Shown here: positions 1-48,465 of the stretch, piece after piece
Numbering within the stretch: the stretch's first letter is position 1
Layout: the number at the start of each line of letters is the position of its first letter
NCBI GenBank assembly: GCA_905338395.1
Contig: CAJPEW010001021.1
Span: 1-48,465, forward strand
DNA from: Cyprideis torosa
Taxonomy: Eukaryota
DNA: 48,465 nucleotides
Direction of reading: 5' to 3'
Made by a program: the position numbers and the translations under genes
Notes under the pieces: model-generated
Told to the model about the DNA's origin: nothing
What the model saw: the letters and a program-made list of their open reading frames with translations, nothing else
Databases searched by the model: none

Positions 1-138
1 CTTACCTCCTTGTTTCCAACGCAGCGTACTTGGACTTCAGCGTATCCGTAGTACACGACGAAAGCTTGGCGCCTGAAGTAGAAGTCCATCTGTACGACGA
101 AACTGGGAACTCCGTTGCCACTGCGACGGGAACGTCTG
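1..138 (+). CDS. GUSB: beta-glucuronidase (GH2) exon, partial at window start
   Basis: Frame 3 translation ...VEVHLYDETGNSVATATGTSG aligns to human GUSB [27 protein letters not shown] donor at 139. Confidence 0.75.
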
Positions 139-223
139 GTTAGTTGTTTGGCGATCCATTGTTTGGCAAACAACGCCTCAAATGGGAGATTTTTCAGATG
201 GATTATTTTGTCTCTCTCTGCAG

Positions 224-534
224 GGCGCCTCAGCATTGTGAATCCTGTACTTTGGTGGCCGTACTTGATGAACGAAACCTATGGGTACTTGTACGAGTTG
301 GAAGTCGTGGTTCGAACACCAAGCGTTCAGTCGAATGACCCTGCTGCCTTTGCAGTTTGGACCGAAGCAAAAAGTCTGCATTCCTTCCAAAGAGCCAAAC
401 GGGCCGGAGACGTGTTGGATGTTTACCGTCTCAAAGTCGGATTGAGATCTTTGACGTGGGACAATGATACCATGGCGATCAACTGCAAACCGATTTACTT
501 CCGGGGCTTCGGGATGCATGAAGATCACGATTTC
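224..534 (+). CDS. GUSB: beta-glucuronidase exon (NPVLWWPYLM...GFGMHEDHDF)
   Basis: Strong identity to GUSB [20 protein letters not shown]...GKPFYFHGVNKHEDAD; acceptor cag at 221-223, GTGAGT donor at 535. Confidence 0.85.
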
Positions 535-699
535 GTGAGTGCTGTTGAAGGAAGGAAAACCGTGGAGAAATGCAACGGAGATTCAATCCCAGAGAACAGA
601 AGTTCCAGGCACCATTTCCAGACCTGATAGGCAGTTAGTAGTTTCTGAAGCTCAACGACGTAACCTAGCCTCGTTTAAGAAAGGCGTGAAGCGTAATAG

Positions 700-778
700 G
701 CATGCGCCTTCTTTGCATGCAACTTGCAGACTCCTATGGGATTATGGTCATCGATGAACTACCAGCCGTAGCTCTTAG
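700..778 (+). CDS. GUSB: beta-glucuronidase exon (MRLLCMQLADSYGIMVIDELPAVAL)
   Basis: Aligns to GUSB [23 protein letters not shown]; acceptor aatag at 698-699 is uncertain; donor GT at 779. Confidence 0.6.
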
Positions 779-903
779 GTGTGGTTCCACAAGAAGGGTT
801 TCGTATAGAACTTCATGAATGGCTCTGAACTGCTTTGGTGTCGATCTCTCAATTAGGGTTTCGTATGCATCTCATGAGTGGCTGTAAACTCATTTCTTCG
901 TAG

Positions 904-1047
904 CAACTTCGATTCGGTCATCTTGTCTTTGCATCAACAAATGCTTCAAGAGCTGATCAATCGGGACAAGAACCATCCTTCTGTCGTGATGTGGTCTCTG
1001 GGCAACGAATGCCTCACCAACGATCCTTCCTCTGCTCCTTATTTCCA
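904..1047 (+). CDS. GUSB: beta-glucuronidase exon (catalytic acid region ...DKNHPSVVMWSLGNEC...)
   Basis: Aligns to GUSB RRDKNHPAVVMWSVANEP (acid/base Glu retained); GTAAGT donor at 1048. Confidence 0.85.
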
Positions 1048-1195
1048 GTAAGTTCAAGTGAAATCACTCACTCCTCCCTCCATACTCTGAACCAATAAGC
1101 CGATTCAGTTGGTTTGCGTTACATCTATCACCTGTATCGGAATACGAGTCGTTTAGCTGACATATGAGACGACGGTGTTTGCAAACGTATCACAG

Positions 1196-1280
1196 GACTT
1201 TGTCGACACTGGCTCGCATCTTGGATAGCTCAAGACCAATCACGAACGTCGTCAATAAACCCGTCGACAGTGACGTCGCA
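1196..1280 (+). CDS. GUSB: beta-glucuronidase exon, alternative copy A (QTLSTLARILDSSRPITNVVNKPVDSDVA)
   Basis: Aligns to GUSB [27 protein letters not shown]; acceptor cacag, GTGAGT donor at 1281. Confidence 0.75.
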
Positions 1281-1309
1281 GTGAGTAAACCCCAGATTTT
1301 TCTTCGCAG

Positions 1310-1394
1310 AACCCTCTCTTTCTTGTCTCGTCAATCGGACCCATCCCGTCCTGTCACCCTCATCATTAGTTATTCTGTGCACTCTGACTTTGCT
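1310..1394 (+). CDS. GUSB: beta-glucuronidase exon, alternative copy B (QTLSFLSRQSDPSRPVTLIISYSVHSDFA), tandem duplicate of the 1196-1280 exon
   Basis: Same 85-nt length and phase as copy A, own acceptor (cgcag) and GTGAGT donor at 1395; SDPSRPVT matches GUSB [8 protein letters not shown]. Confidence 0.65.
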
Positions 1395-1860
1395 GTGAGT
1401 CACCAATTGAATCCTGTGAAATGCTCGTGAGGCAGGGATTGATGGGATATAATTATATGCTTTAGTTAAACAAGTGTTTTTCATTAGCATGTCAGCGTTG
1501 GCAAATGACGTTTGTCGAATTTTATCAGTCAGCGTTTGTGGCCTGAATTTGCACACTTCTTTTGCATGTCGCAACGAATCGCCAAAGATGAAATCGATGA
1601 TGAAAGTGATAAAGCTCTCTCTTTACATCGATCGTTGACATCGTACTCAAAGCAAACCCACGCTCTCTTTTAGATGTATATTTGCTTCTAATCTAAGAGA
1701 AATTCTCTGAAGTGCACTTCATCTAGGAAGATCTGATTTTTCTTAAAGAAAAAGCTCCGAAGGATTCATTTTCAAACTAAGAATCATGGCTTGCCATTTG
1801 ATACACCAACCAAACCAATTGGACGCCTTCCTGACTATCATTTATTACTTGCTCACACAG

Positions 1861-1944
1861 GGTCATTACGTCGATATTCTGGGCATCAACAGATACTTCG
1901 CCTGGTATTCGAACGGCGGACGTCTGGAGGTCATACGTTCCAAT
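1861..1944 (+). CDS. GUSB: beta-glucuronidase exon (GHYVDILGINRYFAWYSNGGRLEVIRSN)
   Basis: Aligns to GUSB [28 protein letters not shown]; acceptor cacag, GTAAGC donor at 1945. Confidence 0.85.
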
Positions 1945-2088
1945 GTAAGCCATTGGTTTCGATTGATTCGTTCATATCATCGATGATGGTGACATACGGC
2001 ACCAATACACAAATGGATGTCAAAAGCAATCAGGTATTTAACCGGGTAAACTCAAAACAGTTGGTTGAAAACTTGGTTGATCATTCAG

Positions 2089-2181
2089 GTTCTTCATGAG
2101 TATCCGCAGTGGCATGCGAAGTACGGGAAACCGGTTCTTGTCACAGAATACGGAGCAGGCGCCGTGGCAGGCCTTCATTCA
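2089..2181 (+). CDS. GUSB: beta-glucuronidase exon (nucleophile region ...KPVLVTEYGAGAVAGLHS)
   Basis: Aligns to GUSB KPIIQSEYGAETIAGFHQ (nucleophile Glu retained); GTGAGC donor at 2182. Confidence 0.85.
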
Positions 2182-2277
2182 GTGAGCGATTATTCTCAAT
2201 TTGAATAGATTATAATGTCTCTATTGCAAAGATACGATTCCGACCTTCAATAATCGCGGTTTCGCTATTCAATAAAG

Positions 2278-2444
2278 GTTCCAAGTTATCAATTCTCTGA
2301 GGATTACCAAGTTGATCTTCTCAAGGAACACTTCGCTGCCTACAAAATCCTTCGAGAAAACAACAGCTATTTCATTGGGGAGATGATCTGGAACTTCGCA
2401 GATTTCATGACCAAAGAGGAGGCCAGGAGGGTCTATGGAAACCG
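2278..2444 (+). CDS. GUSB: beta-glucuronidase exon (SEDYQVDLLKEHF...[22 protein letters not shown])
   Basis: Aligns to GUSB TEEYQKSLLEQYH...[23 protein letters not shown]; exact acceptor position uncertain; GTGCGT donor at 2445. Confidence 0.8.
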
Positions 2445-2536
2445 GTGCGTCGTCCTTCGCATGACTTCCACATGACCGTCACAGGGCTTGTCGGTGATGG
2501 ATCATGGTATATAAGTAATTTGGTTTCTATTTTCAG

Positions 2537-2654
2537 GAAAGGAGTCTTCACAAGGAATCGGCAAGCCAAGCCTGCTGCGCATGTCACGCGTACCCACTAC
2601 CTGCAGCTGGCTGAAGAGCTCGACCATATGAAGCCGGACAGATATCCGAAATAG
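2537..2654 (+). CDS. GUSB: beta-glucuronidase terminal exon (RKGVFTRNRQAKPAAHVTRTHYLQLAEE...*)
   Basis: Aligns to GUSB [28 protein letters not shown]; acceptor tttcag; TAG stop at 2652-2654. Confidence 0.85.
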
Positions 2655-3092
2655 AACTTTTTGATGCGTACTTCTTTTTGTGATCTTTGGGATGCATATC
2701 TGCTAATGTGTATTTGTAGTCTTGAGGATGTATATTTGATGGATTAAAAATTATTGTTTTATTCTTCTTAAAATGTGACTCTGGGGTACCAAATTTTTTG
2801 AGCACTGCAATTGCTTTAGCTGCGTGTGTTACTTTTCCCCAAACTGCGCCGTACACCATGAAACCGTGTGAAGCATGGTCAGTGAAAGCAGCGGCAGACT
2901 CCAGCGCCTCCTCAACTGCAGAGAATATTCTGTCTTTAAGGATCGGGTGTATGTGGAGTCGAATTTCTTCGAGGTGCGAATGCCCGTTTTCGTGGAATGT
3001 CTTTCATTCACGATAAAACATTGATCAAATCGTTTCCTCCATCGGGTTTTGTCTAGCTAGATCCACACACCCACGGCCCACGCAGACAGATA

Positions 3093-3729: not shown

Positions 3730-4010
3730 TCGACCAGATCTCGTGCTGAAAAGCCCACCGCTAGTCAACCGGAAGAGGAAGATTCGAACTCTGACTTCTC
3801 TTTCTTGCCGATGGTCGTTCCCGAATGTATCGTCAGCAGGGACAACCAACTAGGGGAAGTGGAATTTTATCACGAATTCTCACGGAATATTGCAGATCAG
3901 TTCACTACCAGTACCATCAGCATTGATGTGACTGCTCCATTTCTTCCGGACAAGCCTTGCATGCCGAACCCGTTCGACAACGGACTCCTAGTAGCTTGCA
4001 CCAAATGCAG
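3730..4010 (+). CDS. hypothetical protein, exon 4 (STRSRAEKPTASQPEEEDSNSDF...LVACTKC)
   Basis: ttttcag acceptor, cag|GTAAGA donor; the donor-containing 37 bp is tandemly duplicated at 4018-4054. Confidence 0.45.
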
Positions 4011-4136
4011 GTAAGAACGGACTCCTAGTAGCTTGCACCAAATGCAGGTAAGAAAAGGCATGAAAAGCTGTACATACACGGTCAATGTGAATAATCGTTA
4101 TACTTGTGTTTTCCACTGTTTTCTTTCCAAATCCAG

Positions 4137-4548: not shown

Positions 4549-4690
4549 AACGAATACGAAGATACAATAACAACGCTTCCTAAAACTACGAAGATACAAT
4601 AACAACGCTTCCTAAAACTACGAAGATACAATAACAACGCTTCCTAAAACTACGAAGATACAATAACAACGCTTCCTAAAACTGAGTAGC
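4549..4690. repeat. 32-bp tandem repeat x ~4.3 (gatacaataacaacgcttcctaaaactacgaa)
   Basis: Perfect copies at 4561, 4593, 4625 and 4657. Confidence 0.95.
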
Positions 4691-8000: not shown

Positions 8001-8207
8001 AGTGATGATGAGGCAACAAAGGACGATAAACTGATTCCTGAAGTGATGATGAGGCAAGAAAGGACGATAAACTGATTCCTGAAGTGATGATGAGGCAAGA
8101 AAGGACGATAAACTGATTCCTGAAGTGATGATGAGGCAAGAAAGGACGATAAACTGATTCCTGAAGTGATGATGAGGCAAGAAAGGACGATAAACTGATT
8201 CCTGAGA
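8001..8207. repeat. 45-bp tandem repeat x ~4.6 inside MVP intron 4
   Basis: Near-perfect copies of tgatgatgaggcaagaaaggacgataaactgattcctgaagtga. Confidence 0.95.
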
Positions 8208-8632: not shown

Positions 8633-8705
8633 GTGAGTCCTCAGAGCCCCTTGCGACAGTTGCACCGAAGGAAATCAATGTGGAACACGCCATTTTTTTC
8701 TTCAG

Positions 8706-8828
8706 GTTAACGAGACATTTCTGGACACGGTGAAGTTGACGACATTGACCAGCCGGCAGTACTGCGTGATCCTCAATCCCATCGGAAGTGACGGTCGACC
8801 TCAGTATGGTCAAAGGAAGCTGGTCAAG
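8706..8828 (+). CDS. MVP: major vault protein exon 7
   Basis: ...SRQYCVILNPIGSDGRPQYGQRKLVK aligns to MVP [26 protein letters not shown]. Confidence 0.9.
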
Positions 8829-42500: not shown

Positions 42501-43181
42501 CAGGTCAGCTCTAGTGACAGGTCAGCTGTAGGGACAGTCAGTTCTAGGGACAGGTCAGCTTTAGGGATAGGTCAGCTCTAGGGACAGGTCAGCTTTAGGG
42601 ACAGGTCAGCTTTAGGGACAGGTCAGCTCTAGGGACAGGTCAACAGGTCAGCTATAGGGACAGGTCAGGTCAGGTCTAAGGACAGGTTAACAGGTTAGCT
42701 ATATGGACAGGTCAGCTCTAGGGACAGGTCAGTTGTAGGGACAGTCAGTTCTAGGGACAGGTCAGCTCTAGGTATAGGTCAGCTCTAGGTATAGGTCAGC
42801 TCTAGGGACAGGTCAGCTCTAGGGACAGGTCAGCTTTAGGGACAGGTCAGCTTTAAGGACAGGTCAGCTTTAAGGACAGGTCAGCTCTAGGGACAGGTCA
42901 GGTCAGGTCTAAGGACAGGTTAACAGGTTAGCTATATGGACAGGTCAGCTCTAGGGACAGGTCAGCTGTAGGGACAGTCAGTTCTAGGGACAGGTCAGCT
43001 CTAGGTATAGGTCAGCTCTAGGGACAGGTCAGCTTTAGGGACAGGTCAGCTTTAAGGACAGGTCAGCTCTAGGGACAGGTCAGGTCAGGTCTAAGGACAG
43101 GTTAACAGGTCAGCTATAGGGACAGGTCAGCTCTAGGGACAGGTCAGCTGTAGGGACAGTCAGCTCTAGGGACAGGTCAGC
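42501..43181. repeat. 18-bp minisatellite (gggacaggtcagctctag) x ~38 with ~260-bp higher-order structure
   Basis: Variant blocks (caggtcaggtcaggtctaaggacaggttaacaggttagctatatggac; ggtataggtcagctctag) recur in the same order about 3 times. Confidence 0.95.

Positions 43182-48295: not shown

Positions 48296-48465
<170 letters not shown>

What the first reader, a model, noticed from the sequence alone, without database searches (positions are those of the whole stretch)
1196..1394. Tandemly duplicated 85-nt exons in the beta-glucuronidase gene that look like mutually exclusive alternative exons
Two adjacent segments each carry a pyrimidine-rich acceptor and a GTGAGT donor. They are exactly the same length (85 nt) and phase, and encode homologous peptides:
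- QTLSTLARILDSSRPITNVVNKPVDSDVA
- QTLSFLSRQSDPSRPVTLIISYSVHSDFA

Both align to GUSB ...[23 protein letters not shown]. Because 85 is not a multiple of 3, including both would frameshift, so exactly one must be used per transcript. This is the classic signature of mutually exclusive exons, and it would give two beta-glucuronidase isoforms differing in a surface segment of the TIM barrel. The alternative is that one copy is a decaying duplicate.
Basis: seen in the sequence. Interest (0 to 1): 0.55.

Follow-up and report, generated by a model that had tools for sequence, protein, structure and literature searches.

The report
Alternative exon pair in crustacean beta-glucuronidase
Two adjacent 85-base copies of one beta-glucuronidase exon look like an either/or splicing pair that swaps a loop lining the enzyme's substrate pocket, a known kind of feature that other crustaceans are annotated as having at the same exon, though this gene copy also lacks an essential upstream piece.

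Summary
Exon A (1196-1280) and exon B (1310-1394) are both 85 nt, in the same phase, AG-flanked, and followed by GTGAGT. Their peptides are 15/29 identical.

Both copies have been kept as coding sequence. 14 of 28 codons keep the amino acid, and 13 of those 14 use a different codon (P about 7e-5 under random placement of the differences). The "decaying duplicate" reading is therefore unlikely.

RefSeq isoforms of beta-glucuronidase differ by substitution of exactly this segment in decapods and the springtail Folsomia; in the fly Bradysia the substituted block starts at the same boundary but runs further downstream. In Penaeus japonicus the copies are tandem 85-nt exons. The two closest relatives found, the ostracods Darwinula and Notodromas, have a single copy.

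Only 29 nt separate A from B, against 85-466 nt for the other introns, which argues for steric exclusion.

- A + spacer + B (199 nt) stays in frame, so joint inclusion does not always shift the frame.
- The segment is strand beta-5 plus loop 5 of the aglycone pocket, not just a surface segment.
- The gene as assembled lacks about 31 codons (the RTSHYPY region), and the 534-to-700 junction is out of frame.

There is no transcript evidence for this species. This is a new member of a known kind.

The parts
904..1047 (+). Upstream constitutive exon (...DKNHPSVVMWSLGNEC...SSAPYFQ). Its donor GTAAGT at 1048 would pair with the acceptor of either A or B. It ends with two bases (CA) of a split codon.
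   Evidence: Reading and translation. It aligns to all homologues. It carries the acid/base Glu in GNEC.
1048..1195 (+). 148-nt intron before exon A. Its acceptor tract is comparatively weak: 10/18 pyrimidines, cacag|G.
1196..1280 (+). Exon A, 85 nt, encoding (Q)TLSTLARILDSSRPITNVVNKPVDSDVA. This is the more canonical variant: Asn-type loop 5, closest to the single-copy ostracod exon.
   Evidence: 64% identity to Darwinula against 44% for B; 32.9 bits.
1281..1309 (+). 29-nt spacer, GTGAGTAAACCCCAGATTTTTCTTCGCAG. It holds A's 5' splice site and B's polypyrimidine tract and AG, leaving no room for a normal intron. B's branch site must lie in or next to A's donor. The spacer is in frame (VSKPQIFLRR) if retained.
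   Evidence: The other introns of the gene are 85-466 nt. Notodromas introns go down to about 58 nt. The <50 nt steric criterion is from PMC5740500.
1310..1394 (+). Exon B, 85 nt, encoding (Q)TLSFLSRQSDPSRPVTLIISYSVHSDFA. This is the more divergent variant (Ser-Tyr-Ser loop 5). It has a strong acceptor (14/18 pyrimidines) and a GTGAGT donor.
   Evidence: (26.9 bits).
1395..1860 (+). 466-nt intron between B and the next constitutive exon.
   Evidence: No further exon copy lies in it.
1861..1944 (+). Downstream constitutive exon (GHYVDILGINRYFAWYSNGGRLEVIRSN), entered in phase 0. It carries the N-x-Y-x-x-x-Y active-site motif.
535..729 (+). Lesion in the same gene. About 31 codons that every homologue has (RGKG..KDFNLLKW.GANSFRTSHYPY.EE) are absent. 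Homology resumes at about 717 (MQLADSYGIMVIDE). The exon ending at 534 is in phase 0, but the acceptors at 699/700 and 729/730 each need one base from the preceding exon.

Best explanation
The pair is a two-member cluster of mutually exclusive exons, created by a small (114-nt) tandem duplication of the 85-nt exon that encodes helix alpha-4, strand beta-5 and loop 5 of the GH2 beta-glucuronidase TIM barrel.

Each mRNA would take A (junctions 1047>1196 and 1280>1861) or B (junctions 1047>1310 and 1394>1861). Exclusivity would be enforced in two ways.

- Steric: A's donor and B's acceptor are only 29 nt apart. That interval cannot be excised as an intron. U1 bound at A's donor and U2 bound at B's branch site would compete for the same few nucleotides.
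- Frame: skipping both exons shifts the frame. So would joining A directly to B, if that junction were ever spliced. Such mRNAs would be expected to be removed by nonsense-mediated decay.

The two isoforms would differ mainly in loop 5. A has N-K-P and B has S-Y-S at the positions of E. coli V446/M447/F448 and human S485, which line the aglycone-binding pocket. The likely effect is a change in substrate (aglycone) preference, not in catalysis.

What is shown and what is inferred:
- Shown: the anatomy, the homology, selection on both copies, and the same exon being alternatively substituted in other pancrustaceans.
- Inferred: actual either/or usage in this species, the steric mechanism, and the functional consequence.
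- Uncertain: whether this locus is still a working gene, since an upstream segment is missing.
For: Anatomy and frame.

Homology: tblastn E 4e-5 with no other copy in the window. HMM scores are 32.9 and 26.9 bits, against at most 7.2 for shuffles.

Selection on both copies:
- Identity by codon position is 12/21/10 of 28.
- 14/28 codons keep the amino acid, and 13 of those use a different codon, including AGT/TCT Ser, AGA/CGT Arg and TTG/CTC Leu.
- Random placement of the 41 differences gives a mean of 6.6 identical residues, with P(>=14) about 7e-5.

Comparative evidence:
- RefSeq isoforms of equal length differ only by this segment in Penaeus monodon, P. indicus and P. japonicus, and in Folsomia candida.
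- The same segment is substituted, alongside other differences such as alternative last exons, in Cherax, Eriocheir, Homarus, Macrobrachium and Palaemon. In Bradysia the differing block starts at the same boundary but is longer.
- The P. japonicus genome has three tandem 85-nt copies. Two are intact and match isoforms X1 and X2. The third has lost its AG and the RP motif, which shows what a decaying copy looks like.
- The exon is 85 nt and in the same phase in Darwinula and Notodromas.

Spacer: 29 nt, against 85-466 nt for the other introns here. The steric criterion is <50 nt between donor and branch point (PMC5740500).

Loop-5 mapping. Role of the pocket residues: PMC7933434.
Against: - There are no transcript data for this species. 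No closer relative than 48% identity was found, so either/or usage is not observed.
- The authors of the human MXE atlas note that many similar neighbouring exons are not spliced exclusively (PMC5740500).
- A + spacer + B is in frame and free of stops, so a single long exon cannot be excluded from sequence alone.
- The two nearest genomes, Darwinula and Notodromas, have one copy only.
- The gene as assembled lacks the RTSHYPY segment and its 534>700 junction is out of frame. The locus may be a recently broken gene, in which case the cluster is a relic.
Confidence: 0.7

Rival explanations
1. The gene copy in this window is a pseudogene or a degenerating paralogue. The A/B cluster evolved as an alternative-exon pair but is now a relic that yields no functional enzyme.
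For: - About 31 codons that every homologue has (RGKG...GANSFRTSHYPY.EE) are missing between 535 and about 716, with no detectable remnant on either strand.
- The flanking exons are out of phase: 534 ends in phase 0, while 700 and 730 each need one base.
- No protein or transcript matching this gene exists in the 5.8-billion-protein collection.
Against: - All other exons are open and have canonical splice sites.
- They retain the catalytic and nearly all conserved residues that fall within them: NE acid/base, TEYG nucleophile, NRYFAWY, WNFADF, KG.FTR. Any inactivation would therefore be recent and due to one discrete lesion.
- The window ends in a run of 169 C, a sign of a draft assembly, so a local assembly error is conceivable.
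- A weak +4 donor (GTGA|GTGCTG) would restore the frame, but the barrel segment would still be missing.
Confidence: 0.3
2. Only one copy is a real exon. The other is an unused or dying pseudo-exon left by the duplication.
For: - B scores below all 120 family members on the segment HMM, and A is closer to the ostracod orthologues.
- A has a weak acceptor tract.
- Decayed copies of this exon do exist elsewhere: P. japonicus copy 1.
Against: - Both keep the exact length, an open frame, AG and GTGAGT.
- Both keep the family-conserved residues L, R, D, SRP, T and SD.A.
- Synonymous sites are saturated while the protein is conserved. This requires selection on both copies for most of the time since the duplication.
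- The decayed shrimp copy shows the contrast: its AG and its RP motif are gone.
Confidence: 0.12
3. The whole block 1196-1394 is one 199-nt exon. The protein then carries an in-frame internal tandem repeat of 38 residues: two copies of the beta-5/loop-5 unit joined by VSKPQIFLRR.
For: The start-to-start spacing is 114 nt, or 38 codons. Frame 3 is open through A, the spacer and B. 199 nt has the same phase as 85 nt.
Against: - The spacer keeps a perfect GTGAGT donor and a good polypyrimidine tract plus CAG acceptor.
- An open frame over about 10 codons is expected by chance about 60% of the time.
- Inserting an extra helix and strand into a (beta/alpha)8 barrel next to the active site should be disruptive.
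- The homologous copies in decapods are used as substitutions, not together.
Confidence: 0.06

Closest known systems
Alternative 85-nt exon cluster of beta-glucuronidase in decapod crustaceans (RefSeq isoforms, e.g. Penaeus monodon XP_037782638/39/40 and P. japonicus XP_042857678/79), and in Folsomia candida
   Same: It is the same exon of the same gene: the same boundaries (YF| ... A|xSSLD / GHYVD), the same 85-nt length and phase, tandem copies, and variation concentrated in loop 5. In P. japonicus the Asn-type copy lies upstream of the Ser-Tyr-type copy, as it does here.
   Different: - Decapods have three copies separated by about 500-550 nt. Here there are two copies separated by 29 nt.
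- Copies within a lineage resemble each other more than copies across lineages in the first half of the exon. Common origin and independent duplication cannot be told apart.
- The nearest ostracod genomes have one copy.
- I found no paper describing this cluster.
Sterically enforced mutually exclusive exons, e.g. alpha-tropomyosin exons 2/3 (own knowledge: Smith and Nadal-Ginard 1989). The class is defined in PMC5740500 as a donor-to-branch-point distance below 50 nt.
   Same: Two homologous neighbouring exons whose intervening sequence is too short to be spliced, so that only one can be joined to the flanking exons.
   Different: Here the entire interval is 29 nt, so the donor and the branch/acceptor region practically overlap. 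The mechanism is inferred and not tested. Joint retention would be in frame.
Tandem-exon-duplication substitution isoforms in general (Kondrashov and Koonin 2001, Letunic 2002; PMC9741552, PMC8373072)
   Same: Equal length, the same phase, protein homology, and isoforms identical except for a homologous structural segment that tunes function.
   Different: The host is a soluble glycoside hydrolase, and the swapped segment lines the substrate pocket. The gene copy seen here is not intact.

Membership tests
Mutually exclusive exon cluster from tandem exon duplication (criteria of Pillmann 2011 / Hatje 2017, PMC5740500) | Neighbouring internal exons of one gene, on the same strand, with nothing between them | tested here: met
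   A is 1196-1280 and B is 1310-1394, separated by 29 nt.
Mutually exclusive exon cluster from tandem exon duplication (criteria of Pillmann 2011 / Hatje 2017, PMC5740500) | Same or similar length and the same reading frame or phase, with no in-frame stop | tested here: met
   85 nt and 85 nt. Both complete CA|x and end in phase 0. Both are open.
Mutually exclusive exon cluster from tandem exon duplication (criteria of Pillmann 2011 / Hatje 2017, PMC5740500) | Protein-level sequence similarity between the exons | tested here: met
   15/29 identical. tblastn E 4e-5 in the window. Both match the family HMM.
Mutually exclusive exon cluster from tandem exon duplication (criteria of Pillmann 2011 / Hatje 2017, PMC5740500) | Canonical GT-AG splice sites on every member | tested here: met
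   cacag|G ... GCA|gtgagt and cgcag|A ... GCT|gtgagt.
Mutually exclusive exon cluster from tandem exon duplication (criteria of Pillmann 2011 / Hatje 2017, PMC5740500) | Exactly one member present in each mature transcript | not testable with these tools
   No RNA data are available and no near-identical protein or transcript is in the collections. The only support is indirect: substitution isoforms at the homologous exon in other pancrustaceans.
Mutually exclusive exon cluster from tandem exon duplication (criteria of Pillmann 2011 / Hatje 2017, PMC5740500) | A mechanism that prevents joint inclusion: frame incompatibility or a donor-to-branch-point distance below 50 nt | tested here: met
   The spliced A+B product is 170 nt and runs into stops. 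The spacer is 29 nt. Caveat: unspliced A + spacer + B is in frame.
U2/U12 splice-site incompatibility type of exclusive splicing | One intron with U12-type sites (/ATATCC or /GTATCC) and the other with U2-type sites | tested here: not met
   All the donors involved are U2-type: GTAAGT at 1048, and GTGAGT at 1281 and 1395.
Competing RNA pairing (docking site / selector) type, as in Dscam | Conserved complementary intronic elements that select one exon | tested here: inconclusive
   The fold of 1150-1450 is no more stable than shuffles (z +0.66). No orthologous two-copy locus is available to test covariation.
Functional GH2 beta-glucuronidase | Acid/base Glu (NE), nucleophile Glu (TEYG) and the N-x-Y-x-x-x-Y motif | tested here: met
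   GNEC, TEYGAG and NRYFAWY align with E. coli E413, E504, N466/Y468/Y472 and with human E451 and E540.
Functional GH2 beta-glucuronidase | A complete (beta/alpha)8 barrel, including the RGKG...GANSFRTSHYPY segment | tested here: not met
   The segment is absent between 535 and about 716. No remnant was found in any frame, and the junction is out of frame.
Functional GH2 beta-glucuronidase | N-terminal sugar-binding domain and signal peptide | not testable with these tools
   The gene starts upstream of the window. The window begins at about human residue 250.

The most novel reading that the evidence does not exclude
The loop-5 exon of beta-glucuronidase is an old pancrustacean alternative-exon cluster, with an Asn-type copy upstream and a Ser-Tyr-type copy downstream, that diversifies the aglycone pocket of a single enzyme gene. 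In this lineage it has been compacted into a minimal 114-nt toggle, in which the 5' splice site of one exon overlaps the branch site of the next. Occupancy by U1 or by U2 then directly decides the isoform. The 29-nt spacing would be under selection.
Probability: 0.25. Interest if true: 0.55.

Novelty: new member of a known kind. Interest (0 to 1): 0.4.

Why it matters
Most well-known mutually exclusive exon clusters sit in channels, muscle proteins and adhesion receptors. Here the swapped piece is the strand and loop that line the aglycone pocket of a glycoside hydrolase.

The same exon is substituted in several pancrustacean lineages, either through repeated duplication or through one ancient event. 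That points to loop 5 as the part of the enzyme that evolution uses to change substrate range without duplicating the whole gene.

The 29-nt spacer would also make a very compact natural test case for steric control of exclusive splicing.

For annotation, the practical points are these:
- Gene models at this locus should carry two alternative 85-nt exons and should not join or drop them.
- The upstream lesion should be checked before the gene is called functional.

Tried and rejected
- **DNA-level repeat detection.** The repeat finder, TRF and blastn self-comparison do not see the duplication, because nucleotide identity is 51%. It is visible only at the protein level.
- **A third exon copy, or an alternative last exon as in decapods.** Neither is present in the window.
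- **A second copy in the introns that flank the orthologous exon in Darwinula and Notodromas.** None was found at tblastn E<=50.
- **The missing RTSHYPY segment.** I searched with motif regexes in six frames, Smith-Waterman on both strands, and nucleotide alignment against shuffles. Nothing rose above chance. Apparent motifs such as LASFKK, or GFPSFNSTH on the minus strand, are at chance level.
- **RNA structure around the pair.** It is not more stable than shuffles.
- **Source species and close relatives.** The exact look-up of the ApoL-like ORF found nothing. The look-up for Folsomia P0043 found no record. The metagenome scan returned mostly bacterial or intron-less GUS sequences, plus two arthropod contigs (L051, L053) that have a single copy.
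- **Literature.** No paper links beta-glucuronidase with mutually exclusive exons.
- **A 31-nt GT...AG stretch inside exon 224-534.** I considered whether it is a tiny intron and rejected it, because removing it breaks the frame.
- **Common origin versus independent duplication, from 28-residue comparisons.** This stayed inconclusive. Copies within a lineage are more alike in the first half of the exon, and there are only weak cross-lineage affinities in loop 5.

Full report
**What is there**

Window 1-2655 (+ strand) holds the 3' two-thirds of a glycoside hydrolase family 2 beta-glucuronidase gene with short introns.

Exon boundaries were read by hand and checked by translation:
- an exon that runs in from upstream of the window and ends at 138
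- 224-534
- 700 or 730 to 778
- 904-1047
- A: 1196-1280
- B: 1310-1394
- 1861-1944
- 2089-2181
- 2278-2444
- 2537-2652, followed by the stop codon

The best structural matches are beta-glucuronidases, including human 1BHG at E 6e-57. The best protein hits are all arthropod. The top two are the ostracods Darwinula stevensoni and Notodromas monacha at 48% identity. They share the unusual GNEC motif in place of NEP. The source is therefore probably an ostracod-like crustacean that is not itself in the collections.

**The observation**

Each is 85 nt, preceded by AG and followed by GTGAGT. Each completes the split codon CA|x left by the exon ending at 1047, and each ends in phase 0 before 1861.

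The peptides are 15/29 identical and the DNA is 43/85 identical. In the whole 48-kb window, tblastn with A finds only B (E 4e-5), and there is no third copy. Against an HMM of this segment built from 120 homologues, A scores 32.9 bits and B 26.9 bits, while shuffles score at most 7.2. DNA repeat tools see nothing.

Two details need correcting:
- A's acceptor tract is not particularly pyrimidine-rich: 10/18, against 14/18 for B.
- The frame argument is incomplete. A joined to B by splicing (170 nt) does shift the frame. But the copies start 114 nt (38 codons) apart, and the unspliced block of 199 nt reads through without a stop.

**Is one copy decaying?**

Probably not.

- Of the 28 full codons, 14 encode the same residue in A and B.
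- 13 of those 14 use a different codon. These include AGT/TCT for Ser, AGA/CGT for Arg and TTG/CTC for Leu.
- Identity by codon position is 12, 21 and 10 out of 28.
- Scattering the observed 41 differences at random gives a mean of 6.6 identical residues, with P(>=14) about 7e-5.

Synonymous sites are saturated while the residues conserved across the family (L, R, D, SRP, T, SD.A) are kept in both copies. There are no indels, and both copies keep their splice sites. Both have therefore been under purifying selection as coding sequence for most of a long history.

A useful contrast comes from Penaeus japonicus. There the first of three copies of this exon has lost its AG and the Arg-Pro motif.

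**Comparative evidence**

I compared RefSeq isoforms within 90% clusters.

- Isoforms of equal length differ only by substitution of precisely this segment (YF| ... A|xSSLD) in Penaeus monodon and P. indicus (three variants each), P. japonicus (two variants) and the springtail Folsomia candida.
- The same segment is substituted, together with other differences such as alternative last exons, in Cherax, Eriocheir, Homarus, Macrobrachium and Palaemon.
- In the fly Bradysia the differing block starts at the same boundary but is longer.
- In the P. japonicus genome (L003) the variants are tandem 85-nt exons at 8701-8785 (decayed), 9343-9427 and 9939-10023. The spacers between them are about 500-550 nt.
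- The single exon in Darwinula (L001 22567-22651) and in Notodromas (L002 11817-11901) is also 85 nt and in the same phase. Their flanking introns hold no second copy.
- Two arthropod metagenome contigs also have one copy.

The either/or use of this exon is thus an annotated feature of the gene in several pancrustaceans. From my own knowledge, not checked here: NCBI's pipeline produces alternative variants only with transcript support.

Whether the window's duplication shares an origin with those clusters is unresolved:
- Within a lineage, the copies resemble each other more in the first half of the exon.
- The order (Asn-type upstream, Ser-Tyr-type downstream) and some loop-5 residues, such as HSDFA, echo the decapod variants.

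**Mechanism (inferred)**

The 29-nt spacer GTGAGTAAACCCCAGATTTTTCTTCGCAG contains A's donor and B's polypyrimidine tract and AG. The other introns of this gene are 85-466 nt, and the shortest ostracod introns seen are about 58 nt. A donor-to-branch-point distance below 50 nt is the accepted steric criterion (PMC5740500).

B's branch site must lie within A's donor or within the last bases of A. Recognition of A's donor and recognition of B's 3' splice site should therefore exclude each other. Skipping both exons shifts the frame, as would joining A directly to B.

The donors are all U2-type, so U2/U12 incompatibility does not apply. The local RNA fold is unremarkable (z +0.66).

**What the swap would change**

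Anchored on the invariant RP[IV]T, the next residues align without gaps as follows:
- E. coli: C443-V-N-V446-M447-F448
- human: F481-V-S-N-S485-N
- A: N-V-V-N-K-P
- B: L-I-I-S-Y-S

PMC7933434 places V446, M447 and F448 (loop 5) in E. coli, and S485 (loop 5) in human, around the aglycone-binding site.

The segment is therefore strand beta-5 plus the pocket-lining loop 5, and not just a surface segment. A Lys/Tyr exchange sits at the position of human S485. A change in aglycone preference is the most plausible consequence. This is an inference.

**Caveat on the gene**

All ten aligned homologues carry about 31 residues (RGKG..KDFNLLKW.GANSFRTSHYPY.EE) between HED... and ...MxxAD. In the window, homology stops at 534 and resumes at about 717. 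I found no remnant in any frame or on either strand.

The exon ending at 534 is in phase 0, whereas both candidate acceptors (699/700 and 729/730) need one base from the preceding exon.

The remaining exons are intact and keep the catalytic and nearly all conserved residues that fall within them. This looks like one discrete, recent lesion or an assembly error. The window ends in 169 C, which hints at a draft assembly. As assembled, though, the gene cannot encode a complete barrel.

**Verdict**

It is not proven by transcripts.

This is a new member of a known kind: a tandem-duplication-derived mutually exclusive exon pair. The same exon is already implicitly annotated as alternative in other crustaceans. 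The unusual point is the 29-nt spacing. Interest is moderate.

Noticed in passing
window 535-729: The beta-glucuronidase gene lacks about 31 codons that every homologue has (RGKG...GANSFRTSHYPY.EE). The flanking exons are out of phase. No remnant is detectable.
   Followed up: yes
window 313-402 (inside exon 224-534): There is an in-frame insertion of about 25 residues (roughly SVQSNDPAAFAVWTEAKSLHSFQRAKRAG) relative to all aligned homologues, in the immunoglobulin-like domain.
   Followed up: no
window 790-903 (intron): The intron before exon 904 contains a tandem duplication of about 60 nt (CAAGAAGGGTTTCGTAT... / CAATTAGGGTTTCGTAT...). It shows that small tandem duplications occur at this locus.
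   Followed up: partly
window 1006-1014: The acid/base motif is GNEC instead of the usual NEP. Among the aligned homologues only the ostracods Darwinula and Notodromas share this, which is a hint to the source lineage.
   Followed up: partly
window 20333-21283 (+), with further ORFs at 21192-22340 and 22865-23428: A 316-aa single-exon ORF matches Pfam ApoL (apolipoprotein L, E 7e-9). It is followed by two long ORFs with no Pfam match. The exact product is not on record in the collection.
   Followed up: partly
window 27392-28003 (-): An ORF contains a short, sub-threshold match to ribosomal protein S30 (Pfam PF04758, 24 bits against a cutoff of 27). It may be an exon of a FAU/RPS30 gene.
   Followed up: no
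window 48297-48465: The window ends in an uninterrupted run of 169 C. This is most likely a sequencing or assembly artefact at a contig end, and it cautions about local assembly quality.
   Followed up: no
window 3979-4054, 4555-4683, 8001-8205, 31193-31500, 42501-43181 and others: There are many minisatellites with periods of 17-182 nt. Several have 99-100% identical copies, for example 32 nt x 4, 41 nt x 5 and 100 nt x 3.1. A 17-nt unit is repeated about 41 times at 42.5-43.2 kb.
   Followed up: no
L003 8701-8785 (Penaeus japonicus): A third, upstream copy of the 85-nt exon has lost its AG acceptor and the Arg-Pro motif. The corresponding copy is annotated as isoform X3 in P. monodon and P. 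indicus, so this looks like a lineage-specific exon death.
   Followed up: partly
RefSeq isoforms of decapods, Artemia and Bradysia (P0113-P0182): These species also have alternative last exons that give two C-terminal versions...GNKKGIFTRNRQPK... and ...GACMKGLFTRARQPK.... No such second last exon exists in the window.
   Followed up: partly
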